Shown piece after piece: positions 578-62,469 of a stretch of DNA of 64,000 nucleotides. Under the pieces are notes generated by a model. That model saw only the letters and a list, made by a program, of their open reading frames with translations, was not told the DNA's origin and ran no database searches. A program made the translations under genes and the position numbers. Source of the stretch: Candidatus Levyibacteriota bacterium (GTDB lineage Bacteria; Patescibacteriota; Microgenomatia; Levybacterales; UBA12049); contig JACOXU010000003.1 of NCBI GenBank assembly GCA_016182185.1, forward strand, positions 57,974 through 121,973, read 5' to 3'. Each line of letters starts with the position of its first letter. Position 1 is the stretch's first letter.

Positions 578-1780
578 TCATCCGCCTATTTTAAATTCTA
601 TAACATCACCGTCTTTTACTATATAGTCCTTCCCTTCAAGCCGCGCCTTTCCTTTTTCCCTCGCGCCTTTCCATCCTTCGCTTGCAACAAAATCTTCATA
701 TGAAACGACTTCTGCTTTAATAAATTTTTTCATAAAGTCTGTGTGTATAGTGCCGGAAGCAATAAGCGCGGTGGAACCGCGTCGAATGGTCCATGCTCGA
801 ATTTCTTTTTCTCCGCAAGTCAAAAAAGAAATCAAATCAAGCATCTCGTATCCTTTTTTTATTACCTTTTCAAGTCCGGATTCACCAAGCCCCAAACTTT
901 TAAGATATTCTCTTTGTTCCTCATCTGAAAGATCAGCCAATTCTGCTTCTGTTTTGGCGCAGACCGCAATAGCATCATCTGGGAATTTTTTATCTAAATC
1001 ATCTTCGGAAACATTGGCGATAAAAAATACCGGTTTTAGAGTAATAAGATTAAGATTTTTTACAGTTTCTTTTTCTTCCTCGGTTAAACCAATATTTTTT
1101 GCCAGTACCCCTTTATCTAACTGCGTTTTTAATTTTTTGATAATTTCCCAGCGCAACAAATCCTCTTTGGTTGCATTCATTCTTGGCTGCTGCTGTTTAT
1201 TTAAGGTTTCCAAATCGGCAAGAATCAGCTCAGTATCAACAGTGGTTCTGTCTTCACCGGGCTTTGGTTCTCCTGTTACATGCGTTATATTTGTATCTTT
1301 AAAATATCTTTGAACATGACAGATTAAATCTACTTCTCTTATGTGCGCCAGAAATTTATTTCCCAAACCCTCGCCCGCCGCTGCACCTTTCACCAATCCC
1401 GCAATATCGATAAATTTTACAGTTGCAGGAATGATCGGAGGCAAAACGGGTGACGCGAACGAAGGGTGCCCGAGGCGCGCATCTGCGTTCGCAGCGCTAG
1501 CAAGACTAGCAGGAGCACCTTGGGAAGAGTGAGCGGCAGGACCCTTTTCGCGAGCGGCCTCAGCGCCGATAATATATGCAAGCTTTTCCAATCTCTCATC
1601 CGGAACCGGAACAACCCCGACATTTGGTTCGATTGTCGCAAAGGGATAGTTTGCCACGAATGCAGTTTGTCTCTTAAGAAGTGCATTAAAGAGAGTGGAC
1701 TTCCCCACATTGGGAAGCCCAACAATCCCAATTGAAAGATTCACACATGAAATTATAACTAACCTAAAGTAAAGACGCAA
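578..1780 (-). CDS. ychF: ribosome-binding ATPase YchF (Obg-like GTPase) carrying an in-frame ~40-aa repeat-derived insertion
   Basis: G1 motif [28 protein letters not shown]...GLGNKFL, and a C-terminal TGS-like end ([14 protein letters not shown]). The annotated start is TTG; the true start may be the GTG at about 1738. Confidence 0.85.
1445..1564 (-). repeat. GC-rich palindromic repeat-element copy inserted in frame in ychF (encodes [14 protein letters not shown]...SFASPV)
   Basis: Local GC spike in an AT-rich gene. The 3' end TTTTCGCGAGCGGCCTCAGCGCCG matches the copies in prs, dnaX and the 61.0-kb intergenic copy. Contains the internal palindrome GCGAACG...CGTTCGC. Confidence 0.6.
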
Positions 1781-7260: not shown

Positions 7261-7290
7261 TATAGCAGAAGATTAAATTGAAAATTTTCC

Positions 7291-7510
7291 TTCAAAAATA
7301 AACATCTTGCTTATTTTCAAAGGAAAAGAGAGAAGAAATTTTGTTGAGGTACGAAGACCAGCAAGTACAGACGCATTTGTCTGATGTGCAGTCTTAGTAA
7401 CTAGACAAAATTTGAGATCTTCTCTCTGTGATGGAATAAGTTGTTTGGTGGTGGTTTGTCATGCATATCGCAAGAGAGCAAGAGGGGGGAAACTCTCACA
7501 TCTGCGTCAA
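7291..7510. repeat. conserved AT-rich arm (downstream/3' side of cargo gene), copy 1; homologous to 22800..23050
   Basis: About 70-80% identity by eye to 22800..23050. Shared blocks CTGCTTATTTTCAAAGGAAAAGAGAGAAGAAAT, CAGACGCA(T/A)TTG(T/C)CTGA and CTTCTCTC. Ends in AGAGGGGGGAAACTCTCACA. Confidence 0.6.
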
Positions 7511-8395
7511 TGCAGCTGAATCACCAGGCTATTGCCCGAGGGGGTGAAATGACAACACCTAGTTCTTTCAGCCGAAACTGTCAGCGAAGCGCTCGCATCG
7601 CCGTCAAAGGGAGGTGAACCAGCGCGCAAGCGCTACTGTCGGGAGTGACTGTCTGGCGTCGGCGTGCTCAGGAACTGGCGGCAGAAGTGCCGGCAAGCCG
7701 ATCAGAGAAAAACACCCCTGCCTTTCCGCATCGCCGATGCAGGCCGTAGGTTAACGCAGTGCCCAGAACAACAGCTGCAATGATGGTCAGCTGAAGTGAC
7801 TGTGCATAACGAAGGATGTCGACGACGTCGCCGGTAATCGATGAGACGATCCAGCTGTCACGCAGGCTCGTTGGCGTCTGCGGAATCGTAGTAACTGGAG
7901 AGTCCCGAGATGAGCCGGTGATCGAAGAGTCAAGACCCACGTCATTGGTTAATGGACTATGAGCCATGCTCATGGCGCCGATGTCCGTGCAGTCGTGCGA
8001 TCCGCATGAAGCAGCCGTGTTGTCAGCAATGTCGGCGCTGTTGCGGATAGAGTCGTCCAGACCCTGACCTGACGTGAACGGGTGTAATATTCCCTGGGAC
8101 ACGTCCAGATTGACGATGGTCGCCTGAGACGAACTGGCGAGAGAGACTTCGGGACTTGCTCTGGCTTGCGGAGTCAAATGCTGACTGGGCATCAAAGCGA
8201 AGAAGCCGCAGATAGCAGCAAGTGCCACACACGCCATGAGTCCAAGAAGAGATCTCCCCTGTCGACATCTTACTGTCTCAAAGGACATAAGACCTCCTGT
8301 TACGGACCTGTCGGGATTGATATATTAAATTGTGATGAATCCGATAAACACCTCCGTATTGTGAATTTGGTGCAAATGCAAGAGTTCCCCCCGCC
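7481..8395 (-). mobile_element. GC-rich cassette-like island 1, bounded by inverted repeats AGAGGGGGGAAACTCT / AGAGTTCCCCCCGCC (putative; mobility unproven)
   Basis: Sharp GC shift (about 55-60% against about 35% in the flanks). A 12-bp inverted repeat sits at the inner boundaries. The same architecture with different cargo recurs at 23026..24281. Confidence 0.4.
7668..8288 (-). CDS. hypothetical membrane protein (cargo of island 1)
   Basis: 206-aa ORF with N-terminal and C-terminal hydrophobic helices. AGGAGGT lies 4 nt before the ATG. In GC-rich DNA long ORFs arise by chance, so coding status is uncertain. Confidence 0.4.
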   Translation of the reverse strand: MSFETVRCRQGRSLLGLMACVALAAICGFFALMPSQHLTPQARASPEVSLASSSQATIVNLDVSQGILHPFTSGQGLDDSIRNSADIADNTAASCGSHDCTDIGAMSMAHSPLTNDVGLDSSITGSSRDSPVTTIPQTPTSLRDSWIVSSITGDVVDILRYAQSLQLTIIAAVVLGTALTYGLHRRCGKAGVFFSDRLAGTSAASS

Positions 8396-8556
8396 AATTG
8401 ACAAGCCTTGTCAAAAAGCGGGGAAAACCTTACCCGCACTCAATTCATCACACTTATTCCAAATTTCAATGTGCGATTTGTTTTTTCCTGAAATACATCT
8501 GCAAATAGATGTACCAGAGCAAAAACAATTAATAGTCAACTATAATATAACACAAA
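8381..8556 (-). promoter_or_regulatory. conserved upstream arm/leader of island 1: TGTTATATT -10-like box, ~170-nt conserved leader with dyad TTGACAAGGCTTGTCAA, then the inverted repeat
   Basis: Homologous to 24266..24432 (TGTTATAAT, TTGATAAAGTTTATCGA). Lies upstream of the cargo-gene RBS in both islands. Confidence 0.45.
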
Positions 8557-22787: not shown

Positions 22788-22799
22788 CATAAATTCTCC

Positions 22800-23050
22800 T
22801 CCAAAAACAAACACCCTGCTTATTTTCAAAGGAAAAGAGAGAAGAAATAATGAAAGGTAACGATGACCAGCTTGATTCAGACGCAATTGCCTGAGTAGCA
22901 GTCAAGGAAACCTGACAAAATTTTGTGAGCCTTCTCTCCTGGTAAATGTAATGGGAATAAGTTTGCATTGGAGTCTCCTTTCGGATTAACATGGCTGTTA
23001 ATTGATCCGCCAAACGCAGAGATTTGAGAGGGGGAACTCTCACACCTGCA
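22800..23050. repeat. conserved AT-rich arm (3' side of cargo gene), copy 2; homologous to 7291..7510
   Basis: See copy 1. Ends GAGAGGGGGAACTCTCACACCTGC, immediately followed by the stop codon of the fbp-like gene. Confidence 0.6.
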
Positions 23051-24281
23051 CTAGCGGGGTTGTTGCTCCGTCTCGGGCGGAGGAGGTGAACCTGCAGGTA
23101 CAGGTTGCACCCTTGTGGTAGAAGCCGCTTCCTCATCGGATAGTGGCGTCCATCGGTCGGCGAGCTTTTTGGCAACGTCCGGCATGGTTGTGTATTCCAT
23201 CTCCTCCAAGGGAAGACGGTGGGGTTCGAATGGTCCGTGCTTACGCAGGTAGTCGGCGATATCGTTGGCCTCCTGGCGGACGTTGTCAAAACCCGGGTCG
23301 TCGAACATGTCGTTCGGGCCAATAAGCTTGCCGTTTGCAAGCTGAAATCCCAGCGACACGAGTCGCGGCGGGCCGTCGAAGCGGCTCGGGTGTGCGTCTT
23401 TCAAGCCAACAGGCATAAGCGGCCCATGGTGGGATCCGCGCATCCAGCCCTCAACTGTCCACGCAGTGGTGAACGGTTCGAGCACTTCGCCCACAGCCGG
23501 GAAATTTCCCTGACAGCGAACGATCATGGTCGGGTCGTCCTTGCCAACGTAGCGGCCGGCAATCATGGACAACTTGTCCGTGCTGGAACACGCAGCGATC
23601 TCACCGGAGTCACGATGGCGCACGCGCTTTACGGCGTAACGCTGTCCAGAACCGATGAAGACGAGCATGTCGTAGATCTCATCCGGCGCGTTAAGCGTGA
23701 CCTGCAGGTGCTCCTTGACGTCCTGGACTTCGAAGGAAAACCCTCCATGGAGTGGCGCTCCGATAACGAGCCCCGGCGTGTTGAACGGATCCGCGAACAT
23801 CTTGTAGAGCGGCAGGTTGAAAGCTCCGGCTGAGGTCTTGTCGCCCATGAAGACGATGATTGGCTCTGACGGCCGCTCGTCGATCTCCATTTCGGCCGAA
23901 CCGGGACCTGCTCCCTTGATGTTACCGCTGAATGCGTCCGTCAGAAGGTCCTGGCCTGCGCCGTAAAGCTTGAGCTTCTTGGCCAGTTCCGTACCCTTGA
24001 CAAACGTGTCCCACGCCAACTTGTGGATCTCTGTGTTGTTCTCGCCACGATCGTGAGTCATGATGAGAAACATGTCGTCTCCACAGTGGCTGACGTGACA
24101 ATCGACAAGAACTCCGGCCTGCTTTGCCTTCTCCAGCTCTTCACGACCGAGGTCGAGAATATCCGGATGAGACGAGCAGTGGCCGACCATTCCGCCGATA
24201 TCCGCTTTTATGACAGAAATTGTAACCAAAATTCCTCCTTGTTAGCTTTTGAATGGTGTAGATGTAAGAGTTCCCCCCGCC
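23026..24281 (-). mobile_element. GC-rich cassette-like island 2, bounded by the same inverted repeats as island 1 (putative; mobility unproven)
   Basis: GGGGGAACTCT at 23031..23041 and AGAGTTCCCCCC at 24267..24278. Cargo GC is about 60%. Confidence 0.4.
23051..24229 (-). CDS. fbp: fructose-1,6-bisphosphate aldolase/phosphatase (class V FBPase, archaeal-type bifunctional)
   Basis: N-terminal MVTISVIKADIGG and internal YKMFADPFNTPGLV, WMRGSHHGPLMPV, RFDGPPRL and EMEYTT are signature motifs of FBP aldolase/phosphatase. AAGGAGG lies 5 nt upstream of the ATG. Confidence 0.85.
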   Translation of the reverse strand: MVTISVIKADIGGMVGHCSSHPDILDLGREELEKAKQAGVLVDCHVSHCGDDMFLIMTHDRGENNTEIHKLAWDTFVKGTELAKKLKLYGAGQDLLTDAFSGNIKGAGPGSAEMEIDERPSEPIIVFMGDKTSAGAFNLPLYKMFADPFNTPGLVIGAPLHGGFSFEVQDVKEHLQVTLNAPDEIYDMLVFIGSGQRYAVKRVRHRDSGEIAACSSTDKLSMIAGRYVGKDDPTMIVRCQGNFPAVGEVLEPFTTAWTVEGWMRGSHHGPLMPVGLKDAHPSRFDGPPRLVSLGFQLANGKLIGPNDMFDDPGFDNVRQEANDIADYLRKHGPFEPHRLPLEEMEYTTMPDVAKKLADRWTPLSDEEAASTTRVQPVPAGSPPPPETEQQPR

Positions 24282-24432
24282 ACTCGATAAACTTTATCAA
24301 AAGACGGGGAAAACCCTACTCTACCCAATTCATTTTCCAACTTATTCCATTACTTTTTAATGTGCAAAATGTTTACACCTTTTTGTACCAGCGATATAGA
24401 TACAGAAGATGAAAAACAAAATATTATAACAT
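24266..24432 (-). promoter_or_regulatory. conserved upstream arm/leader of island 2 (TGTTATAAT, dyad TTGATAAAGTTTATCGA, inverted repeat)
   Basis: Homologous to 8381..8556. Confidence 0.45.
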
Positions 24433-27224: not shown

Positions 27225-27656
27225 TTACCTTGAGGCAGAGATATTTGGTGACCCTTCAGTACCGCAAGCTTTTACTGTAACAAGACCGGCAGCATTTACC
27301 ACAACAGAATATCCTGTTAAAGCAGCTGTGCCATTACTCGGATCTAATGGAATAGAATTGAGATAATTAGCAAGAGCACCGCTAAGATCTACACAGCCAT
27401 TAGTAGCTCCTACGTTGCAGCCACCTGTTGCAATAGCGCAATTAGCAGCTGTAGGTTCAGTACCGATCTGTTTTTCGACCATGCCGGCCGTAAGGCCAGA
27501 AGGAAGAGCACCAGCATTGTCTACGATTGAGGCATGAATGGCAGTCAAGATACTTTGAGTATCAGAAACTCTCTTGGCATCTCTTGTATCCTCGAGTCTT
27601 TGGGCAGGATTTAAGGCTACAAAGACCACGACTGCCAAAACTGCGATAATTGCCAT
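27225..27656 (-). CDS. type IV pilin-like protein lacking a prepilin leader (paralog A)
   Basis: Starts MAIIAVLAVVVFVALNPAQRLEDTRDAKRVSDTQ, corresponding to pilin helix residues ~7 onward. The first ~110 nt of coding sequence are identical to paralog B. Confidence 0.6.
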   Translation of the reverse strand: MAIIAVLAVVVFVALNPAQRLEDTRDAKRVSDTQSILTAIHASIVDNAGALPSGLTAGMVEKQIGTEPTAANCAIATGGCNVGATNGCVDLSGALANYLNSIPLDPSNGTAALTGYSVVVNAAGLVTVKACGTEGSPNISASR

Positions 27657-27700
27657 GAACCTTTGAGAGATTTTGTTTTGTTAAGAATTTTTTTCATATA

Positions 27701-28132
27701 TTATCTTGAAGCAGAAATTGTGGTTGCTCCTTCAGTACCGCAGGCTGTCACTGTCACAAGTCCTGCAGCACTGACCACTACGCTGTAACCTGTTTCTGCG
27801 GCTGTATAGGTGGTTCCTCCCGTTGGATCGATTGGAATAGTATTCAAGTAATTGGCAAGAGGAGTAGTTAGATCAACACATCCGGTTGGAGTTATCGAAC
27901 ACACGCCCACTGTTCCTCCGCAACCGGTTGCCGCTGTTCCGATTTGAGTCTGTGACATGCCTGCAGTAAGGCCAGAAGGAAGAGCACCAGCATTGTCTAC
28001 GATTGAGGCATGAATAGCGGTAAGAATTGTTTGGGTATCAGAAACTCTCTTGGCATCTCTTGTATCCTCGAGTCTTTGGGCAGGATTTAAGGCTACAAAG
28101 ACCACGACTGCCAAAACTGCGATAATTGCCAT
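27701..28132 (-). CDS. type IV pilin-like protein lacking a prepilin leader (paralog B)
   Basis: Identical N-terminal 36 aa, divergent C-terminus. TTGACA-18-TAATAT promoter with the ATG 7 nt after the -10 (leaderless). Confidence 0.6.
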   Translation of the reverse strand: MAIIAVLAVVVFVALNPAQRLEDTRDAKRVSDTQTILTAIHASIVDNAGALPSGLTAGMSQTQIGTAATGCGGTVGVCSITPTGCVDLTTPLANYLNTIPIDPTGGTTYTAAETGYSVVVSAAGLVTVTACGTEGATTISASR

Positions 28133-28231
28133 GTATATCTATATTAGAATAAAAAAAAATCGTTTGTCAAGTACCAGTTTTAAAGCTAAAAAGTGAGATT
28201 TCGAAAAATTTTTATAAAATTTTATCTGCTT

Positions 28232-29141: not shown

Positions 29142-31081
29142 AATGCGAATGAAAACGGACTGCTTATTGTTTGTGATAACGATGATGTAATTCCGCCCGT
29201 ATCGGAATTAGTCCAAAATAAATAATCGGTTATTCCAATACGCAGGAACCATAATCTTTTTGCATATAATGAATTACTGCTGTCCGTAACGAAAAATAAA
29301 AATTGATTTTGAGTAATTGGATTCATTTGAATGTCGTACCATCTCTGACTGGTCGTGAAAAGCGGAGATGGCGCCCAGTCCGTTTGAAGCGTAAATGCGC
29401 CTCCGCTGCCTGCATACCAGCCGATGTTACCTGCTCCGCTGTCATGATAGGCAATCACATGTTTATTATAAGTTGTAAAGACCAGCCATCCCGTGGACAC
29501 CAATTTTGTCCCGGCCGAAGGTGCGGCGGTTGTAGTATCTGCAATCGCCGGTGAGTTCCAGACGGTTCCGTTCCAGTAAGCAAGTTGCAATCCCGGAGTA
29601 TTTGAGCCAACCGAACCAAGTATAATCTCATTTGAGGCAGCAGAGGGATTTGCCGAGATATCTAAATTTACCGCGTCGTTGGTAGTAAGCGTTATTATCG
29701 AACCCCATGAACACCCGGTATAAGTTGCTGCCCCACCGTTATTGGTACATATAGTATATTTTGTTCCGTTTGAAGCATTTCTTCCATGCCCTGTTGCGTA
29801 TCCCCACATTACCATAACATTACCTGACTGACTCATATACTCAACATCAAAATTATCCACATCCTGTACAGTACTTATATTCTCCAGTGAATTTTCCAGA
29901 GTGCTTCCCTGAACCCAGGAATTGCCTGTAGGATCCCAGACGGCATTTGACAGGCCGGATCCGTCATCGGCATAAATTGCCGTTATTAAATTGGAGCCTA
30001 TCCTTCTGTCCCATGCCATTTTCACCCATTGAATTATTCCTTTGGGCTGAGTAGGATTATAATTCACCTGCACTGACCAGTTTGCGCCTCCGCAGCCTAC
30101 TGATCCTGATTTAGTTCTATATGCCAGTTCATTTGTTGGTTTGTTGTTTGTGCTGTAAAGCACTACAATCTTACCAGAATTTGTTTCATAGGCAATATCA
30201 AATCTTCCTGTCTCCCCCGTTCCGCCTACAACTGCAGACCAATCCTGTGTCCACTCGTATCCGTCAAAACACATTATATATAGTATGCCTGAAGAATCGA
30301 CATATCCTGCAACAGCTTCTGATCCAGTCGGAGAAGTTCTGACAAGAAAAGTCCGGGTTTGTGTTCCTGTTGGAATAGGTGTAGGCATAGAGACCTGTTT
30401 TGAAAATTTAGTATTTAAAGCAGTCTCAAATATTCTATGTTTAACCACATCGGTTCCGTCTCCATACATTAAAAGACCTCCTTCCGTAATAATCGGTTTT
30501 TTGAAACTAGTAAGATAATTTATAAGAACAACAGAATTTTGCCGCGCCGCACTAAAATTCCAAGTGACCGTTGAAGTGATCTTCTTTGTATTTTTATCAA
30601 GCGCACCTCCACTTGTAACTATATTTCCTCCTGATCGATAGACATCTTCAACTTTGATAACTCTTTTATATTTGTTATTGGATCCAAAATAATTCTCGGT
30701 TCCGTAAAATTCCCAAACATTTCCTGCTGAACGCCTCACTCCGGTACCACTTGAGCTTACTAAATACTTATAATTTTGATTTCTAACGGATCTTGCTGCT
30801 TCAAGCCCTTCGCTGGCAAATTGAGTAGCCACAGCCTGCTCTCCCCCAAGTCTATTTGAAGAAAGAGCCTGAAGAACTATGCTGATTGCACCTGATGAAA
30901 AAATTACAAATAAAGTCGCAGCCAGAATCAATTCAATTACGGAAAACCCAGTATCAAAATTTCTAATTGACTTAATTCCTAATTGATCTAAAAAAATTCC
31001 AAATCTAAATTTTCTATATTTGCCTCTTGGTGCTTTATTAGAAATTAGATTAATTAGAGTACTTAGAAATTGTTTTCTCAT
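29120..31081 (-). CDS. large prepilin-like protein (653 aa; candidate tip or adhesin pilin)
   Basis: ...RNFDTG|FSVIELILAATLFVIF prepilin motif after a long leader. Large Gly/Ser/Thr-rich beta-rich body. Confidence 0.6.
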   Translation of the reverse strand: MRKQFLSTLINLISNKAPRGKYRKFRFGIFLDQLGIKSIRNFDTGFSVIELILAATLFVIFSSGAISIVLQALSSNRLGGEQAVATQFASEGLEAARSVRNQNYKYLVSSSGTGVRRSAGNVWEFYGTENYFGSNNKYKRVIKVEDVYRSGGNIVTSGGALDKNTKKITSTVTWNFSAARQNSVVLINYLTSFKKPIITEGGLLMYGDGTDVVKHRIFETALNTKFSKQVSMPTPIPTGTQTRTFLVRTSPTGSEAVAGYVDSSGILYIMCFDGYEWTQDWSAVVGGTGETGRFDIAYETNSGKIVVLYSTNNKPTNELAYRTKSGSVGCGGANWSVQVNYNPTQPKGIIQWVKMAWDRRIGSNLITAIYADDGSGLSNAVWDPTGNSWVQGSTLENSLENISTVQDVDNFDVEYMSQSGNVMVMWGYATGHGRNASNGTKYTICTNNGGAATYTGCSWGSIITLTTNDAVNLDISANPSAASNEIILGSVGSNTPGLQLAYWNGTVWNSPAIADTTTAAPSAGTKLVSTGWLVFTTYNKHVIAYHDSGAGNIGWYAGSGGAFTLQTDWAPSPLFTTSQRWYDIQMNPITQNQFLFFVTDSSNSLYAKRLWFLRIGITDYLFWTNSDTGGITSSLSQTISSPFSFAFWRNLTE

Positions 31082-55599: not shown

Positions 55600-56209
55600 T
55601 CCTTAAGGTTACATCGTCTGCGTATTCAAGATCTGCTCCAATCGGCAACCCCCTGCCAATTCTGGTAATTTTAACAGTTTTGAGTTTTGAGTTTTGAGTT
55701 TTGAGTTCGCCAAATTTCTTGGCGATGTACATTGCCGTTGCTTCGCCCTCCATTGTTGGATTTGTCGCCAAAATTACCTCTTGAATAAGTGATCCCGAAC
55801 CGTTTGACGATTTTTTCACCCTGTCAATTAGCTGCTTTATATAAATTTCATCTGGTCCAATATTGTTCAGAGGATCAATCTTTCCATGTAATACGTGGTA
55901 TAGCCCGTTATATTTTCTGCTTCGCTCAAGTGAAATCACATCCAGAGGTTGCTCCACTACGCATATAATTGAATTGTCTCTCTTCTCATCACTACAGATA
56001 GAACAGGGGTCAGTTTCTGCAATAGTAAAACACTCGGAACAAAGTACAGTATCTTTCTTAAGATTCTGAACTGAGGCTGAGAATTTATCAAGTTCGCCTT
56101 GCGGAACATGAAGAAGATAAAAAGTCAGCCTCTGTGCGGTCTTGGGCCCAATACCCGGTAATTTTTCAAATGATTCAATAAGATTTTGAATTGCTTTTGG
56201 AATCCGCAT
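55568..56209 (-). CDS. recR: recombination protein RecR
   Basis: HhH (LPGIGPKTAQRL), C4 zinc finger (CSECFTIAETDPCSIC) and a Toprim domain. Contains an in-frame GTTTTGA x4 repeat. Confidence 0.9.
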   Translation of the reverse strand: MRIPKAIQNLIESFEKLPGIGPKTAQRLTFYLLHVPQGELDKFSASVQNLKKDTVLCSECFTIAETDPCSICSDEKRDNSIICVVEQPLDVISLERSRKYNGLYHVLHGKIDPLNNIGPDEIYIKQLIDRVKKSSNGSGSLIQEVILATNPTMEGEATAMYIAKKFGELKTQNSKLKTVKITRIGRGLPIGADLEYADDVTLRNALEGRRIYE

Positions 56210-56215
56210 AAAATT

Positions 56216-56295
56216 TCTAATTACTTTAATTTCTAATTAACCTAAATAAATTCTAAAAGCAAAATTTAGAAATTAGGTCAATTAGGTTAATTAGG
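56216..56295 (-). promoter_or_regulatory. AT-rich promoter repeat with tandem TTGACCTAAT units (upstream of recR)
   Basis: Minus strand: TTGACCTAATTAACCTAATTGACCTAATTTCTAAATT...ATG. About 85% similar to 61476..61542. Confidence 0.45.
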
Positions 56296-57330
56296 TCAAT
56301 TTTTTCCTAGTTCTTTTGCTATTTTTCCGCTGACTGATAATATTTCCAGTTTATCAAACCCCTTCTCTCTTGGTACATTTATTGAATCTGTAACATAAAT
56401 CTTTGAAACTTTTGAGCTCTCTAAAATGTTTTTTGCATCATTTGACAGAACTGGATGAGTTACAAAAACTAGAATTTTTTCTATGCTATTTTTTCTAAGA
56501 AGGTCTGCTGCTGCTGCAATTGTCCTGCCGGTTGAAATCATATCATCGACAATAATAGCGGTTTTAACTCCTTTTTTCCATTCTTGACCAGAAACATCTA
56601 CTCTGTTTGATTCTATATTTCCTGTCGCAAGATCTCTGTCTTTAATAATTGAGACATAAGACATATTATCAAGCATTTCTGACAATAATTTAATTCGTCT
56701 TATTCCGCCCATGTCGGGAGAGACGAGGATCGTATCGTTGATGCGCGGGGAGCTTTCAAAATTTTCATTGCGAGCATTTACGCTATCTGACTTTGGGATT
56801 TCGGATGAAACTTTTCTCGCGTTGCGAACAGGAAAATTTTCGCGAGCGACCTCAGCACTCCTCAGAATTTCTTTTATTTTCTCTGCAAAAATTGGCAGAG
56901 CAGATAGATGAACAATCGGAATAGAAAATAGTTCAGGGATTTTGACTGAATGAAGGTCAAGCGTTATAAGACGATTCATTCCAACGCTCTCAAGAGTTTC
57001 AACAATCACTTCAAGAGACACTGCCTCACCGTCTCTGAAGATATGGTCTTGTCTCTGATACCCAAGATATGGAACAACGGCAGTAACAGTTTTGGCTCCG
57101 CTTCTTTTGAGTGCATCAACTATAAAAAATAATTCCATGTAACAATCATTGGGATTTGGAGAAGTAGTTTGGATCACAACAGTATCCTCATTTATTACTT
57201 TATCAACAACTCTTACTCTTTTTTCCCCATCTGGGAAAATATCAATTTCAAGAGGAGATAAGCTGATTTTTAATTCTTTGGCAATTTTTTCTGCCAATGG
57301 CTTATTGGAGCTACCAGAAAAGATCTTCAC
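56296..57330 (-). CDS. prs: ribose-phosphate pyrophosphokinase carrying an in-frame ~40-aa repeat-derived insertion
   Basis: N-terminal Pribosyltran_N and a PRPP-binding loop (AIIVDDMISTGRTI). Insertion ...SAEVARENFPVRNARKVSSEIPKSDSVNARNENFESSPR... before the VSPDMGG motif. Confidence 0.85.
   Translation of the reverse strand: MKIFSGSSNKPLAEKIAKELKISLSPLEIDIFPDGEKRVRVVDKVINEDTVVIQTTSPNPNDCYMELFFIVDALKRSGAKTVTAVVPYLGYQRQDHIFRDGEAVSLEVIVETLESVGMNRLITLDLHSVKIPELFSIPIVHLSALPIFAEKIKEILRSAEVARENFPVRNARKVSSEIPKSDSVNARNENFESSPRINDTILVSPDMGGIRRIKLLSEMLDNMSYVSIIKDRDLATGNIESNRVDVSGQEWKKGVKTAIIVDDMISTGRTIAAAADLLRKNSIEKILVFVTHPVLSNDAKNILESSKVSKIYVTDSINVPREKGFDKLEILSVSGKIAKELGKN
56737..56860 (-). repeat. 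palindromic repeat-element copy inserted in frame in prs
   Basis: GCGCGGGGAGCTTTCAAAATTTTC...CGCGTTGCGAACAGGAAAATTTTCGCGAGCGACCTCAGC. Near-identical in sequence and position-in-frame to the dnaX copy. Confidence 0.65.
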
Positions 57331-57363: not shown

Positions 57364-58284
57364 CTAGACAGAAGGTTGATCTGATCCTCTTTTTTTTTGA
57401 TGGTATCTCTTCACGCTCTCTGAGATTTTCTGTCTCATTTTTTTAGTCCTTCTTAAAATGCGTTTTCTTTTTTTAGAATCCGAGAAAACTAGTTGCGCTG
57501 CTTCTTTTTTTGTTCTTAAAGGAATTCCCGCTGCTTTCATCCATTTAATCACTGTGTCTATCTTAATTTCTAACTTCCCGGCAATTTCCGGCAATGACCT
57601 ATTCTTACCCCAATATTCATTGTATAGAACCTCATTTATTGGCTTTCCATATCTTCTTTCTACATCTTTTAGCTTGGTGCTTCTAATCGGCTCTGAAATT
57701 TTAATCTCTATACCGAACTTATCGCACCAATCGCCAATAACCCTATGACTCTTGCCAAGTTTCTGACCAATCTCTCTTCTGCTAAAGCCCCTTGAGGCGT
57801 AATCCAGTAAAATTTGTTCTATGGGCCTCCCATGTTTATTTTCTATCTCAGTCATCGCAGGAGTTTTTTTAATAGGCGGTCTCTCGCTTGGAATTGCCTT
57901 ATCGAGTTTTTTATATGCTTTGTCTCTAAGTTTAGCGACTGCTTCTCTTGAGATACCACCCATTTGTCTACCTATTTTTCTTAGGCTAGACGGCAATCCT
58001 TCCTCGGGATGTATTAAATTAATTACGTCTCGTTGTCTTTCTGTCAACGTGTTAATTATTCCAGTTTCTCTGGCTTGAAAGATAAGACCGTTTCTAATTG
58101 CATGCTGATCTCCGCCAAGATTTTCTCTACGTCTAACAACACCAACATCGCTATTTGGAAGACTTGAGATACTTACTCTTGATGTATCCTGACTAGATTC
58201 ATTTAAGATAACTCCACTAGGCCGAAAAGGCTTGACAGCGAATTTATGGTGCTCTAAACCTGGTTGTAATTCGTGTTTTGACAT
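57364..58284 (-). CDS. multi-HTH DNA-binding protein (sigma-70 region-4-like HTH plus two HTH_23/transposase-type HTH repeats, basic C-terminus)
   Basis: LTERQRDVINLIHPEEGLPSSLRKIGRQMGGISREAVAKLRDKAYKKL is sigma r4-like. FSRREIGQKLGKSHRVIGDWCDKFGI and RSLPEIAGKLEIKIDTVIKWMKAAGI are IS630-type HTH repeats. Confidence 0.5.
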   Translation of the reverse strand: MSKHELQPGLEHHKFAVKPFRPSGVILNESSQDTSRVSISSLPNSDVGVVRRRENLGGDQHAIRNGLIFQARETGIINTLTERQRDVINLIHPEEGLPSSLRKIGRQMGGISREAVAKLRDKAYKKLDKAIPSERPPIKKTPAMTEIENKHGRPIEQILLDYASRGFSRREIGQKLGKSHRVIGDWCDKFGIEIKISEPIRSTKLKDVERRYGKPINEVLYNEYWGKNRSLPEIAGKLEIKIDTVIKWMKAAGIPLRTKKEAAQLVFSDSKKRKRILRRTKKMRQKISESVKRYHQKKRGSDQPSV

Positions 58285-58887: not shown

Positions 58888-60303
58888 TCACCCCCTTAAT
58901 AATACTGACATTTTAACTTTTTTTCCAGTAATTTCTTCTATAACTTTTTCAATCAATGTCCGAACCCTTACATCTTCTAACTTTTCTTTATGAAATTTGA
59001 ATTTTGCTTCAATCTCAAGTTTTTTCCCGTCAAAGTTTTTAAGAATACATCCTCTGAGAAGCCCTGCTGCAGAATGGTTGTGAGGTTTTACTTTGGCAAT
59101 AAGTTGAGCAAAAATATCTTGGCGCGGGAAGCTCACAAAATTTTCTCTGTTCGCGTTTGCGCCATCTGACTTGGGGATTTCGGGCAAATTTTTTCCCGCG
59201 TTGCGAACAGGAAAATTTTCGTGAGCGACCTCGGCGCCAATACACCACTCAACAATTGCCATTTCAAGCGGCATTTGTGGCAAAACCGCAAATTTCAGTT
59301 GAGAACTTGCCCTTACAAAGAGTTCTGTTAACTCTTTTATTTCATCTAAGCTTAATGACGCCTCTGGTTCTTTGTCCTTAACAACACCTACATTTATCAA
59401 AAGCAGTTCATGCATTTTAAGTATCAGTTGTTCGAGAAAAAATTTCATATCAATTCCCTGCTCTGTCATTTTCCCCACCATCTCAAGACTCCCTTTTACA
59501 TCTTTTTCTGTCAAAAGCCTGAACATCCCTGAAATATAAGATGATAAGTTTGAAATTTGAAATTTTTTCTCAACTATTTCCTTGGTAATTTTCCTGTTTC
59601 CGATTCCTGAATGTATTTCTTCAAGAATCTTGACTCCGTCCCTAAAGCTCCCGTCGGAAAGATCAGAAATTGCCGAAAGTGCATCCTTATCTATGGAAAT
59701 TTTTTCTTGTTTTGCGATTCTTAAGAATGAACGAATTAACTCATCCATGGTTGCTCTCTTAAAAACTATATGGAAACAGCGGGATACAATTGTCGCCGGA
59801 ACTTTATGAGGTTCAGTTGTGCAGAGAATAAACACTACATGATTTGGGGGCTCCTCAAGAGTCTTCAAAAGCGCATTGAATGCCTCAGTGGTAAGCATGT
59901 GAACTTCATCAATAATATAGATTTTTTTATGGGCTCCTGCTGGGGACAGTCTTACCTTTTCACGCAAATCCCTTATCTCATCAATTCCTCTATTTGATGC
60001 TCCATCAATCTCTAAAACATCTATATTGGTTCCATTTGTAATCGATACGCATTGAGCACATTTATTGCAGGGCTCCAAAACTGACTTTTGACTTTTGCCT
60101 TTTGACTTTTGCCTTAATTTTTCGCAATTAACTGCCTTCGCTACAATTCTTGCCGCAGATGTTTTGCCTAAGCCTTTAGGCCCAGTAAAGAGAAGCGCAT
60201 GAATCGATGATTTTTTTGCCAGAAAAGCCGTTAGCTTTTCACGAACCTCACTATTGTCGAGTTCATCTATTTTTTGAGGTCTGTATTTACGATAGAAAAC
60301 CAT
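58888..60303 (-). CDS. dnaX: DNA polymerase III subunit gamma/tau, with an in-frame repeat-derived insertion and a short tandem repeat in the Zn-finger region
   Basis: Walker A GPKGLGKTSA, DEVHML, and sensor motifs. Insertion ...GAEVAHENFPVRNAGKNLPEIPKSDGANANRENFVSFPR... Confidence 0.9.
   Translation of the reverse strand: MVFYRKYRPQKIDELDNSEVREKLTAFLAKKSSIHALLFTGPKGLGKTSAARIVAKAVNCEKLRQKSKGKSQKSVLEPCNKCAQCVSITNGTNIDVLEIDGASNRGIDEIRDLREKVRLSPAGAHKKIYIIDEVHMLTTEAFNALLKTLEEPPNHVVFILCTTEPHKVPATIVSRCFHIVFKRATMDELIRSFLRIAKQEKISIDKDALSAISDLSDGSFRDGVKILEEIHSGIGNRKITKEIVEKKFQISNLSSYISGMFRLLTEKDVKGSLEMVGKMTEQGIDMKFFLEQLILKMHELLLINVGVVKDKEPEASLSLDEIKELTELFVRASSQLKFAVLPQMPLEMAIVEWCIGAEVAHENFPVRNAGKNLPEIPKSDGANANRENFVSFPRQDIFAQLIAKVKPHNHSAAGLLRGCILKNFDGKKLEIEAKFKFHKEKLEDVRVRTLIEKVIEEITGKKVKMSVLLRG
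59113..59237 (-). repeat. palindromic repeat-element copy inserted in frame in dnaX
   Basis: GCGCGGGAAGCTCACAAAATTTTC...CGCGTTGCGAACAGGAAAATTTTCGTGAGCGACCTCGGCGCC. Confidence 0.65.
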
Positions 60304-61019: not shown

Positions 61020-61145
61020 TGCTGTGCGGGGAGCTTTCAAATTTTTGGAGCACGCATTTGCGCCTTCTGAGTTTCTATTCTAAGCAAAGTTGCCCGCTCT
61101 GCGAGCGCACAAAAATTTCGGAAGCGACCTCAGCATAGCCCTATT
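61020..61145. repeat. intergenic copy of the palindromic repeat element (between rpsU and the HIT gene)
   Basis: TGCGGGGAGCTTTCAAATTTTTGG...GCGAGCGCACAAAAATTTCGGAAGCGACCTCAGC. Same termini as the prs and dnaX copies. Confidence 0.6.
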
Positions 61146-61148
61146 TTA

Positions 61149-61475
61149 CTACATTTTTACTTTTTTACCGACCGGACCGACTACATGAAAATGTAAATGG
61201 TCGATAATCTGCGCTCCCCCTCCGTTTAGTACAAGTCTATAGCCCTTATCCTTAAGCTCTGTTTTCTTTACCATTTTTTGAATAGTATTTGCCAATTTAC
61301 CAAAAAGTTTATCATTTTTAAGTTCCAAAAAATCGGTTATATGTTCCTTCGGAACTACCAAGAGATGGGTTGAGGCAATCGGATTTATATCCGAAAATAC
61401 CATTATTTCATCATCTTCATAGGTAAAATCCTTTGGAATTTCTTTCTTTGCAATTTTGCAAAAAATACAATCCAT
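61149..61475 (-). CDS. HIT (histidine triad) family protein
   Basis: MDCIFCKIAKKEIP... N-terminus and the HLHFHVVG histidine triad. Confidence 0.85.
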   Translation of the reverse strand: MDCIFCKIAKKEIPKDFTYEDDEIMVFSDINPIASTHLLVVPKEHITDFLELKNDKLFGKLANTIQKMVKKTELKDKGYRLVLNGGGAQIIDHLHFHVVGPVGKKVKM

Positions 61476-61542
61476 AAAATTTCTAATTATTCTAATCTGT
61501 AATTAACCTAAATGACTTGAAAATTAGGTCAATTAGGTCAAT
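61476..61542 (-). promoter_or_regulatory. AT-rich promoter repeat with tandem TTGACCTAAT units (upstream of the HIT gene)
   Basis: Minus strand: AAATTGACCTAATTGACCTAATTTTCAAG...ATG. Confidence 0.45.
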
Positions 61543-62469
61543 TTAGATTGTCTCTAGCACTTTTATTATATCACTCAATGACAATCTGGTTGCTTTCATC
61601 TTAGGGTTTTTAACCGAGCCGTTTAAAAGCATTTTCTTACCAACATGCAGGAACCATGTTGCCTGGGGATCTACTTTACTGAGTTTTTCATAGGTCAGAG
61701 TCAAGTCTATGTCTACATTTTTCGTATCTTCGGGTTTTTCAAAAACCATGCTCTCATCTCTTGGCCGTGCTTTGATACGGACATAACCCTTTCTCGGATC
61801 CTTACGAACTACCAAAACGTATCCCTTTTTTTGCGCGAGCTTGATGACTGAATCATTGATAGTTTCAAAACCTATTCCTTCACCAAATCTAGTTTTAAAT
61901 TTTATTCCTTTTCCGATTTCTTTTTCTGCCCAAATTTTATTCTCAAACTCATGCAAAAGCGCATCGAGATTTCGACTCATAAAGTCAACATAAAATTCAT
62001 CATGGTCAGGCTTTTCTATCTTAAGCCCATCCAAAATTCCAATAAGTGAAAAGTCGTGATAATCAGCAACGGGGTTTTCCCAAAAAACTTCCTTAAAATG
62101 ATCTATGTCAACAATTATTTTTATCAATCTTTCAAGCGCAGATAGCTTCTCAGGACTTATAGCTTGATTACGCAAAAGGTGTTCAGCTTTAACAAAGTCA
62201 AGTGTAAGACTTGCAGCACAAACCTTGTCACTCGCTGTCTGGTGATGATCCAAAGGTCCTAATCCAGTATCTACATGAATCACTTCATCATTATTTATAT
62301 TTTCTATCGGACCTCGTTGATTAGGCGCAAGTACGACATTTTTAAACCGTTCACCAGCCGGTACAAATTCTACTTTTGCGCTTTCCCACCCCGGCATAAA
62401 TTTTTTGATCACCCAGACAGATGAAACTGCATCCAAATCCGGTGATGAATGCGTAACTATAATTTTCAT
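61543..62469 (-). CDS. DHH-family phosphoesterase (NrnA-like)
   Basis: THSSPDLDAVSS matches DHH motif I-II (H-x-x-P-D-G-D-A). Confidence 0.6.
   Translation of the reverse strand: MKIIVTHSSPDLDAVSSVWVIKKFMPGWESAKVEFVPAGERFKNVVLAPNQRGPIENINNDEVIHVDTGLGPLDHHQTASDKVCAASLTLDFVKAEHLLRNQAISPEKLSALERLIKIIVDIDHFKEVFWENPVADYHDFSLIGILDGLKIEKPDHDEFYVDFMSRNLDALLHEFENKIWAEKEIGKGIKFKTRFGEGIGFETINDSVIKLAQKKGYVLVVRKDPRKGYVRIKARPRDESMVFEKPEDTKNVDIDLTLTYEKLSKVDPQATWFLHVGKKMLLNGSVKNPKMKATRLSLSDIIKVLETI

What the first reader, a model, noticed from the sequence alone, without database searches (positions are those of the whole stretch)
59113..59237. Family of ~120-bp palindromic repeats inserted in frame into essential genes (RPE-like), dnaX copy
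dnaX, prs and ychF each contain a GC-richer segment of about 120 bp with shared termini (GCGCGGG(G)AGCT..CAAAATTTTC at one end and (C/T)GCGAGCGACCTC(A/G)GCGCC at the other) and internal palindromes (CTCGCG..CGCGAG). All three are in the same orientation relative to the host gene and in the same reading frame. They add about 40 residues starting AE(V/A)A(R/H)E(N/K)(F/G)P... between conserved blocks of otherwise normal proteins. A fourth copy is intergenic. This closely parallels Rickettsia palindromic elements, which insert in frame into ORFs. As far as I can recognise, this is not a named element family in this kind of low-GC genome.
Basis: partly seen in the sequence, partly recalled or inferred. 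Interest (0 to 1): 0.8.

Follow-up and report, generated by a model that had tools for sequence, protein, structure and literature searches.

The report
In-frame palindromic repeats in Levybacteria genes
A family of about 117-base hairpin-forming repeats is scattered through the tiny genomes of Levybacteria (candidate phyla radiation) and sits in frame inside many housekeeping genes, adding a floppy 39-residue loop to each protein; this closely parallels the Rickettsia palindromic elements, and I found no description of it in this bacterial group.

Summary
The window comes from a Candidatus Levybacteria MAG. It holds three clear copies of a ~117-nt palindromic repeat: in dnaX (59122-59238), in prs (56743-56859) and in the HIT/rpsU spacer (61024-61136). 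A GC-rich relative sits in ychF (1448-1567). Scans of public genomes and metagenomes gave 66 unique full-length copies. Twenty-six lie inside long ORFs. With four more host proteins from a protein profile search, that makes at least 14 insertion sites in 13 protein families, mostly at inter-domain linkers. Every in-gene copy has the same orientation and reading frame (AEVAxxNF...SENFxSSPR), keeps the host frame and has no stop. Only 9 of 38 intergenic copies do both. The 25-nt termini are nearly invariant and the hairpin is kept by compensatory changes. In an AlphaFold2 model the dnaX insert is disordered. I conclude this is a non-autonomous, MITE-like mobile palindrome that is translated where it lands in genes, and so works like Rickettsia palindromic elements. 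No transposase, target-site duplication or clean empty site was found. No Rfam family matches the window. The element gave no phage, plasmid or viral-contig match, and I found no paper describing it. An unexplained extra is that intergenic copies also favour the sense orientation, 18 to 3.

The parts
59122..59238 (-). dnaX copy of the element. 117 nt = 39 codons (GAEVAHENFPVRNAGKNLPEIPKSDGANANRENFVSFPR). The palindrome extends to 59119-59240 (TTGGCGC...GCGCCAA).
   Evidence: Hairpin -50 kcal/mol, z = -4.4. AlphaFold2 residues 358-393 have pLDDT about 31 and no secondary structure.
56743..56859 (-). prs copy. 117 nt = 39 codons (SAEVARENFPVRNARKVSSEIPKSDSVNARNENFESSPR), between the two PRPP-synthetase domains.
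   Evidence: PDB alignment splits at residues 152/190. Orthologs L001 and L002 lack the full copy.
61024..61136 (-). Intergenic copy in the spacer between the HIT-family gene and rpsU. 113 nt, with a stop in the AEVA frame.
   Evidence: Shorter related copies lie in the same spacer in L002, L003 and L004.
1448..1567 (-). ychF insert, a GC-rich (65%) palindromic variant in the same orientation and frame ([15 protein letters not shown]...HPSFASPV).
   Evidence: Only the 5' terminus matches the family model (E = 0.017). The interior is shared with L072 7780-7975, which has canonical termini.
58888..60303 (-). Host gene dnaX (DNA polymerase III gamma/tau, 471 aa).
   Evidence: P0001, 100% identity, Candidatus Levybacteria MAG
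56296..57330 (-). Host gene prs (ribose-phosphate pyrophosphokinase, 344 aa).
578..1744 (-). Host gene ychF (redox-regulated ATPase, 388 aa as annotated in P0130).

Best explanation
This is a family of non-autonomous, MITE-like palindromic mobile elements specific to Levybacteria and close Patescibacteria. The standard form is about 117 nt; forms of about 40, 85 and 155-180 nt also exist.

Each copy has nearly invariant termini of about 25 nt: 5'-GCTGAGGTCGCT-YNC-GAAAATTTTC ... GAAAATTTTG-NAAGCTCCCCGC-3'. These termini pair with each other. The interior is variable but mostly self-complementary. The element encodes no protein of its own, so it must be moved, or copied by recombination, by an enzyme encoded elsewhere that recognises the termini or the hairpin (inferred).

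When a copy lands in a gene in the sense orientation and in the frame that reads AEVAxxNF...SENFxSSPR, it adds 38-40 hydrophilic, disordered residues. It survives where a protein tolerates that, mainly at inter-domain linkers and surface loops. It is then transcribed and translated with the host protein (shown by frame and stop-codon statistics; not shown by proteomics). Copies in other frames, or carrying stops, persist only in intergenic spacers.
For: - Dispersed repeat: 117 family hits and 66 unique full-length copies in 92 loci plus the window. There are 3-4 copies in this 64-kb window.
- In-gene copies: 26 lie in long ORFs. Together with four more hosts from the protein profile search they mark at least 14 sites in 13 protein families, confirmed by Pfam or PDB matches. 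All 26 are sense, in the same frame, keep the host frame and have no stop. Among intergenic copies, 18 of 38 keep the frame and 10 of 38 have no stop.
- DNA-level conservation: the termini are invariant at synonymous positions and are equally conserved in intergenic copies, so the constraint is on DNA and not on the peptide.
- Hairpin: 82.6% of cells are paired, against 35-52% for slid controls. Eighteen pairs have changes on both sides. No shuffle of 500 reaches the observed covariation score.
- No clustering by host gene: copies group by subfamily, e.g. L033 GT1 with L004 dnaX at 91% and L062 GT1 with L052 RluA at 87%.
- Missing or reduced copies: the closest ychF ortholog has no insert. prs of L001 has none, and prs of L002 carries only a 43-nt remnant.
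- The dnaX insert is a disordered linker in the AlphaFold2 model.
- The element is richer in G+C than the host: 47.5% in genes against 38%.
Against: - No transposase or autonomous partner with the same termini was found.
- No direct target-site duplication is visible. The variable bases flanking the core are inverted complements of each other, not direct repeats.
- No clean empty site in a close relative was available, so insertion boundaries are approximate.
- The dnaX and HIT/rpsU-spacer copies sit at the same sites in relatives at about 60-75% dnaX identity. Much of the distribution could therefore be old and vertical, with gene conversion, rather than ongoing transposition.
- Translation is inferred from sequence only.
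- The sense-orientation bias of intergenic copies (18:3) is not explained by peptide tolerance.
Confidence: 0.8

Rival explanations
1. The segment is a functional protein module: a short linear motif or tag (AEVAxxNF ... ENFxSSPR). It would have spread among housekeeping proteins because the peptide does something, such as partner binding, localisation or turnover. The DNA palindrome would be incidental.
For: The same frame is used in all 26 in-gene copies, although 2-3 of the 6 frames are open in most of them. The peptide ends are conserved. The sites are exposed linkers.
Against: The conserved residues coincide exactly with the DNA termini. These termini are just as conserved in untranslated intergenic copies and show no synonymous variation. 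The central peptide is highly variable. The AlphaFold2 model shows no structure. No Pfam family covers the inserted stretch in the host proteins scanned, and domain matches stop at or split around it.
Confidence: 0.06
2. It is a strand-specific nucleic-acid element whose hairpin is the functional unit. Candidates are an RNA stabiliser or attenuator, an antisense RNA, or a site for a replication- or transcription-coupled single-strand enzyme. The in-frame coding copies would be a tolerated by-product.
For: Intergenic copies between co-directional genes are sense 18 times and antisense 3 times. Covariation keeps the hairpin. The strand antisense to the genes folds better as RNA in 20 of 21 copies (mean -39.4 against -33.0 kcal/mol). 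Intergenic copies fill compact spacers just after stop codons.
Against: The fold asymmetry comes largely from the shared termini, so the 21 copies are not independent evidence. No Rfam family matches. Some in-gene copies, such as prs and L011, fold no better than shuffles. Transcription direction cannot be separated from replication direction with these data: GC skew is negative throughout the window.
Confidence: 0.1
3. The extra residues are ordinary, vertically inherited linker sequence of these proteins, or an artefact of MAG assembly.
For: The dnaX insert lies in a linker that is variable in all Levybacteria and is shared with several relatives at the same place. One database protein (P0125) looks like a chimera joined at the element.
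Against: The same about 117 nt occurs in 13 unrelated protein families and in spacers. Independent assemblies from NCBI, JGI and ENA give intact ORFs with the insert at orthologous sites. Close orthologs of ychF and prs lack it.
Confidence: 0.02

Closest known systems
Rickettsia palindromic elements (RPE; Ogata et al. 2000 and 2002, as summarised in PMC10969869; census in R. bellii, PMC1458961)
   Same: Both are short (about 100-150 bp) palindromic dispersed repeats in a small genome. Many copies are inserted in frame in unrelated housekeeping genes and add a conserved peptide. Other copies are intergenic. Several subfamilies exist. No transposase is known. Inserts appear compatible with protein fold and function.
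   Different: The host is an unrelated phylum (Patescibacteria, Levybacteria). Homology to RPE sequences was not tested and none is expected. Here the termini are nearly invariant while the interior is free. Intergenic copies also show an orientation bias (18:3). Orthologous sites carry different subfamilies, and defined mini forms recur.
Bacterial MITEs in general (Correia/NEMIS, ERIC, RUP, BOX, Nezha and others; review PMC10969869)
   Same: Small size, terminal inverted repeats, no coding capacity for a transposase, many dispersed copies, a hairpin-forming transcript, and occasional in-frame fusion with host ORFs.
   Different: No target-site duplication and no cognate insertion sequence could be shown. 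In-frame intragenic copies make up a large share here: 26 of the 64 unique copies that could be anchored at both termini. That sample was collected through conserved termini, so it is not a census.
REP/BIME elements mobilised by RAYT (IS200/IS605-like) transposases (PMC3733652)
   Same: Palindromic, hairpin-based and often orientation-biased. The proposed mechanism is single-strand and strand-specific, which would fit the orientation bias seen here.
   Different: REPs are 20-40 nt and extragenic, and carry GTAG or CGTC tetranucleotide tags. No RAYT gene was seen in the loci examined.
Mini-inteins
   Same: In-frame insertions in essential genes, including replication proteins.
   Different: At 39 residues the insert is far too short. 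It has no Cys/Ser/Thr at its first position and no His-Asn plus nucleophile at its end. It is disordered in the AlphaFold2 model.
Palindromic amphipathic repeat coding elements of Mollicutes (PMC2996958; title and abstract only)
   Same: Palindromic DNA that is translated.
   Different: Those are intragenic tandem repeats linked to surface phenotypes. They are not single dispersed insertions in housekeeping enzymes.

Membership tests
RPE-like protein-coding palindromic elements (functional class) | Dispersed repeat of about 100-150 bp with palindromic (hairpin) potential | tested here: met
   66 unique full-length copies. 82.6% of cells are paired with compensatory changes, and no shuffle of 500 reaches the observed score.
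RPE-like protein-coding palindromic elements (functional class) | Inserted in frame in several unrelated protein-coding genes, giving a homologous peptide | tested here: met
   At least 14 sites in 13 families. All 26 in-gene copies are in the same orientation and frame, with the frame kept and no stop.
RPE-like protein-coding palindromic elements (functional class) | Insert lies where it does not disrupt the fold (surface loop or linker) | tested here: met
   In dnaX, residues 358-393 have pLDDT about 31 and lie between two confident domains. Pfam and PDB domain matches split around the insert in prs, FolC-like ligase and GT1. Other hosts were judged by alignment only.
Rickettsia palindromic elements (the family itself) | Sequence homology to RPE-1 to RPE-10 consensus, in a Rickettsia host | not tested
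   No RPE sequences or models were available in the tools. The host is a Levybacteria MAG. I do not file the element as a member of this family.
MITE | Terminal inverted repeats | tested here: met
   Imperfect terminal inverted repeats of about 25 nt, nearly invariant.
MITE | Direct target-site duplication flanking each copy | tested here: inconclusive
   The flanks are inverted complements of each other rather than direct repeats. No closely related empty site was available to define the boundaries.
MITE | Cognate autonomous insertion sequence with the same termini | tested here: inconclusive
   None was seen in 640 kb of loci or in the window, and genes flanked by two copies are housekeeping genes. 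No collection-wide search for termini spaced 0.7-2.5 kb apart was possible.
MITE | Presence/absence variation at orthologous sites (evidence of mobility) | tested here: met
   ychF: present in the window, absent in P0131. prs: a full copy in the window, L007 and L053, a 43-nt remnant in L002, none in L001. topA sites A and B are filled or empty reciprocally in L010, L012 and L018.
Intein | Nucleophile at the first residue, C-terminal His-Asn plus a downstream nucleophile, and at least about 130 residues | tested here: not met
   The insert is 38-40 residues. It starts G/S/N-A-E-V and ends S-P-R/H.
Known RNA families (Rfam 15) | Match at gathering score | tested here: not met
   No match anywhere in the window, and no tRNA or tmRNA.

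The most novel reading that the evidence does not exclude
The element may spread by a strand-specific mechanism coupled to transcription or replication. It could be a hairpin-recognising single-strand DNA transposition system, or one with an RNA intermediate. This would explain three things: why both genic and intergenic copies are almost always in the sense orientation; why the bases flanking the core are inverted complements rather than direct duplications; and why a defined 43-nt mini form recurs. If so, it would be a previously undescribed mobility system, and a major generator of linker and loop sequence in the proteins of ultra-small bacteria. The other recurrent peptides in the dnaX linker hint that several such families exist.
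Probability: 0.15. Interest if true: 0.8.

Novelty: new member of a known kind. Interest (0 to 1): 0.62.

Why it matters
In-frame protein-coding palindromes have been treated as a peculiarity of Rickettsia. [quoted passage not shown]

An independent family with the same behaviour in Levybacteria has three consequences:
- Selfish palindromes that colonise essential genes would be a recurrent outcome in reduced genomes. Such genomes have almost no intergenic space in which an element can hide.
- It gives a concrete source for the many lineage-specific insertions seen in candidate-phyla-radiation proteins.
- It flags a cause of annotation and assembly errors in MAGs, such as chimeric proteins joined at the repeat and inflated protein lengths.

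The nearly invariant termini also give a handle for finding the unknown enzyme that moves the element.

Tried and rejected
- **Peptide search, word-indexed database.** A search of the 5.8-billion-protein database with the 40-residue insert found nothing. The method is insensitive for so short a query: the window's own dnaX is in that database.
- **Peptide profile search.** A profile search of 1.84 billion representatives gave only 9 significant hits. It is useful for listing host families but is not a census, because one representative stands for each 50% cluster.
- **Exact boundaries and target-site duplication.** Codon alignments of prs and topA orthologs were too divergent.
- **Transposase search.** I looked near copies and in genes bracketed by two copies. 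Only LeuRS, an amino-acid-kinase-family protein and GT1 were found.
- **Phages and plasmids.** Viral contigs (two scans), the phage collection and the plasmid collection gave no match.
- **Rfam and tRNA scans.** Nothing was found.
- **Possible antisense in-gene copies.** L054, L059, L035, L085 and L092 have the element antisense in open frames of 111-178 codons. These frames are low-complexity and look spurious, so I rejected them.
- **Proximity to the upstream stop codon.** Intergenic copies usually start within about 20 nt of it, but the next gene also starts 9-60 nt downstream. This reflects compact spacers and is not a specific signal.
- **RNA fold asymmetry.** The antisense strand folds better in 20 of 21 copies. 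I did not treat this as independent evidence, because the shared termini drive it.
- **Intein and intron readings.** Rejected on motif content and on the frame and stop statistics.

Full report
**Source and context**

The window's dnaX product is 100% identical to a protein annotated 'MAG: DNA polymerase III subunit gamma/tau [Candidatus Levybacteria bacterium]' on a 190-kb NCBI contig. The window has 38% G+C. It has no tRNA gene and no Rfam match at gathering score. GC skew on the plus strand is negative throughout. The genes around the finding are all on the minus strand: ychF, rpsF ... cysS, recR, prs, an HTH-repeat ORF, ybaB, dnaX, ybeY, rpsU, HIT, a DHH-like gene and proS.

**Checking the observation**

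Reading the four places and aligning them shows that three are plainly the same sequence. These are the segments in dnaX, in prs and in the HIT/rpsU spacer.
- A profile of the three finds each again at E = 1e-38 to 8e-45, and finds nothing else in the window above noise except the end of the ychF segment.
- A broader 21-copy model gives 1e-30, 2e-29 and 6e-26.
- The repeat finder reports the same termini independently (families D3, D8, D17, D18).
- All copies have the same orientation. On the coding strand of the genes, one frame reads GAEVAHENFPVRNAGKNLPEIPKSDGANANRENFVSFPR in dnaX and SAEVARENFPVRNARKVSSEIPKSDSVNARNENFESSPR in prs. The intergenic copy has a stop in that frame.
- Refined limits are 59122-59238, 56743-56859 and 61024-61136.
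- Against solved structures, prs has about 39 extra residues between its two domains and ychF has about 41 extra residues.
- As single strands, the dnaX copy forms an almost complete hairpin (-50 kcal/mol, z = -4.4) and the intergenic copy is also clear (z = -3.0). The prs and ychF copies are not above shuffled controls.

**The ychF segment**

The ychF segment is 65% G+C. Only its 5' 23 nt match the family model (E = 0.017). It is still palindromic. The AAAATTTT core is replaced on both arms by AAAAGGGT and ACCCTTCG.

One metagenomic copy, L072 7780-7975, has both canonical termini and a GC-rich interior that shares several blocks with the ychF insert: GGGTCCTGCC, GCTCCTGCTAGTCT and CGAACGCAG. 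I therefore accept the ychF segment as a divergent subfamily member, with less certainty than the other three. The nearest ychF ortholog (P0131, 355 aa, 71% BLASTP identity to the window's ychF) has no insert. The site is a hot spot for unrelated short insertions in other relatives.

**Is it native protein sequence?**

It is not.
- The dnaX alignment of 27 Levybacteria orthologs shows a hypervariable linker between domain III and the C-terminal domain. Several relatives carry the same AEVAHKNF...SENFxSSPRQD peptide at the same place (P0002, P0004, P0007, P0013, P0016, P0025). Others carry quite different sequences.
- Syntenic loci L001-L004 carry the element in dnaX and a shorter related copy in the HIT/rpsU spacer.
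- Their prs genes lack the full insert. L001 has none. L002 has a 43-nt remnant that keeps both termini.

**Distribution**

One scan of species-representative genomes with the 5'-terminus pattern gave 22 loci, 14 of them from Levybacteria or Patescibacteria MAGs. One metagenome scan with the independent 3'-terminus pattern gave 66 loci.

A 21-copy family model finds 117 hits in these 640 kb plus the window. Of these, 85 are full length and score above 45 bits, and 66 are unique.

Twenty-six unique copies lie inside open frames of 242-1045 codons. The host proteins, identified by Pfam, PDB or alignment, are:
- DnaX
- PRPP synthetase
- a GT1/GT4 glycosyltransferase
- a FolC-like Mur ligase
- DprA
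- RadA
- LeuRS
- topoisomerase I, at two different sites
- an RluA-type pseudouridine synthase
- a DHH-like protein
- a conserved protein with no Pfam match

A profile search of 1.84 billion representative proteins adds an NTP-transferase and a tRNA-binding-domain protein.

That makes at least 14 insertion sites in 13 families, plus ychF. Where domain matches are available, the insert falls between domains (prs, FolC-like ligase, GT1, DnaX). In the AlphaFold2 model of the window's DnaX, residues 358-393 have pLDDT about 31 and no secondary structure. They lie between two confidently modelled parts.

**Translation**

All 26 in-gene copies are in the sense orientation and in the same frame. Their length between anchors keeps the host frame (106, 109, 112, 115 or 121 nt), and none has a stop.

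Among 38 intergenic copies every length from 106 to 112 nt occurs. Eighteen keep the frame, ten have no stop and nine do both.

If the segment were removed from the RNA, there would be no reason for this difference. I conclude that the in-gene copies are translated. This is inferred from sequence and is not demonstrated by proteomics. The few open frames that contain the element in the antisense orientation are short and low-complexity, and look spurious.

**A DNA element rather than a peptide module**

The conserved residues (AEVA..NF and ENF.S.PR) coincide with the two DNA termini, GCTGAGGTCGCT-YNC-GAAAATTTTC and GAAAATTTTG-NAAGCTCCCCGC. These termini are invariant even at third codon positions and are equally conserved in intergenic copies. 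The interior is free to vary.

On 55 copies, a hairpin pairing the two halves has 82.6% of cells paired, against 35-52% when the partners are slid by 1-3 columns. Eighteen pairs have changes on both sides. No shuffle of 500 reaches the observed covariation score. The compensatory changes are concentrated in two places: the three pairs just outside the invariant core (GGCGC..GCGCC, AATGC..GCATT, TTTGC..GCAAA) and an inner stem (GTTCGC/GCGAAC against GCTTTC/GAAAGC).

Copies cluster by subfamily and not by host gene. L033 GT1 is 91% identical to L004 dnaX. L062 GT1 is 87% identical to L052 RluA. The window's dnaX and prs copies are each other's nearest relatives at 80%. Orthologous sites therefore carry different subfamilies. 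This means either repeated insertion at the same permissive sites or gene conversion between copies.

Derivative forms exist:
- a 40-nt form in which the two termini are joined at the GAAAATTTT core (L017, L051)
- an ~85-nt subfamily
- an identical 43-nt form in two different genes of two genomes (L002 prs, L005 dnaX)

**What is not explained**

No transposase or autonomous partner was found, and genes bracketed by two copies are ordinary housekeeping genes. No direct target-site duplication is visible, because the variable flanks are inverted complements of each other. No clean empty site in a close relative was available.

Intergenic copies between co-directional genes are in the sense orientation 18 times and antisense 3 times. 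Peptide tolerance cannot explain this. A strand-specific mechanism could, and so could selection at the RNA level. Replication direction and transcription direction cannot be separated with these fragments.

The strand antisense to the genes folds better as RNA in 20 of 21 copies. This comes largely from the shared termini, so the copies are not independent observations.

**Comparison with what is known**

The behaviour matches what is reported for Rickettsia palindromic elements. Those are about 150-bp palindromic repeats in several families, with many copies inserted in frame in unrelated genes and each encoding a conserved peptide (PMC10969869). [quoted passage not shown]

I do not file the element as a member of the RPE family. 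The host phylum is unrelated and homology was not tested. It meets the MITE criteria of size, terminal inverted repeats, copy number, lack of coding capacity and presence/absence variation. The criteria of target-site duplication and a cognate insertion sequence remain open. Intein, intron and known-RNA-family readings fail their defining tests.

No copy was found in viral contigs, phage genomes or plasmids. Six full-text searches combining Patescibacteria, CPR, Microgenomates or Levybacteria with palindromic element, MITE, in-frame or the RPE paper titles found no description of such an element (one search was uninformative). The library lacks most subscription journals, so this is absence of evidence only.

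**Verdict**

It is a new family of an already known kind of element, in a lineage where I found no report of it. It has some unexplained features (orientation bias outside genes, inverted flanks, recurrent mini forms) that could point to an unusual mobility mechanism. Interest is moderate to high for specialists in mobile elements and in candidate-phyla-radiation genomics.

Noticed in passing
window 7282-7362 / 22791-22871 and 8368-8433 / 24254-24319: Two GC-rich cassettes are bracketed by the same pair of repeats (83% and 82% identity; the second repeat is itself a palindrome). One cassette holds a GC-rich ORF with no Pfam match (7668-8288, minus strand). The other holds a class V fructose-1,6-bisphosphatase (23051-24229, minus strand, PF01950, E = 7e-177). 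They look like acquired genes sharing upstream and downstream signals.
   Followed up: partly
window 30953-31064, 56207-56301, 61473-61543: An AT-rich repeated spacer motif (AAATTTCTAATT... and AAATTAGGTCAATTAGG) recurs in three intergenic spacers, including recR/prs and HIT/DHH. It may be a shared promoter or operator (families D5, D9, D12, D16).
   Followed up: no
window 27225-28133: A direct duplication with a 476-bp period (families D1 and D4; 90% and 74% identity).
   Followed up: no
dnaX linker of relatives (alignment A3, columns about 410-520); L004 about 11180; L008 RadA: Other recurrent peptides occupy the same dnaX linker in other Levybacteria. PHIENDAR...SAFSSFSSGQ occurs in P0016, P0021, P0063, P0070 and P0114. 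NAEKR...SASF.DK occurs in P0067 and P0100. LPASAPS...VGSPSSRVTLRSSD occurs in P0011 and P0017. 'AHIENDAL' also sits just before the element in RadA of L008. These are probably further insert families.
   Followed up: partly
L002 13103-13133 (prs) and L005 about 3349 on the minus strand (dnaX): An identical 43-nt mini form, GGCGC(C/G)(G/C)AGGTCGCCCCGCCAGGGCGGGGCTCCCCGCGCC (peptide GA(E/Q)VAPPGRGSPR), occupies the site where other genomes have the 117-nt copy. It occurs in two different genes of two genomes, so it is either a reproducible deletion or excision product or a mobile mini variant.
   Followed up: partly
protein P0125 (270 aa): An RluA-type N-terminus is joined to a GT1 C-terminus exactly at the element. 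This is either an assembly chimera across the repeat or recombination between copies. It is a warning for MAG assemblies.
   Followed up: no
L012 (CAYZEE010000036.1) and L019 (CAYPAU010000003.1): These contigs are labelled 'uncultured Gammaproteobacteria' MAGs. They carry full element copies inside topA and GT1 genes that resemble those of the Levybacteria loci, so they are probably mis-binned.
   Followed up: no
ychF orthologs (alignment A6): Many lineage-specific short inserts occur at several positions of YchF in relatives, for example AEASAGQAGSGIAR in P0138 and P0246 and SASSGQVQ in P0155. Short insertions seem common in the proteins of this clade.
   Followed up: no
window 57364-58284 (minus strand): An ORF of 306 aa with sigma-70 region 4 and repeated HTH matches lies between ybaB and prs, between the two genic copies. 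It is absent in L001 and is 212 aa in L002. No transposase domain was found.
   Followed up: partly
L004 1498-2556: A reverse-transcriptase (RVT_1) gene lies about 8 kb from the dnaX copy in one relative. No link to the element was examined.
   Followed up: no
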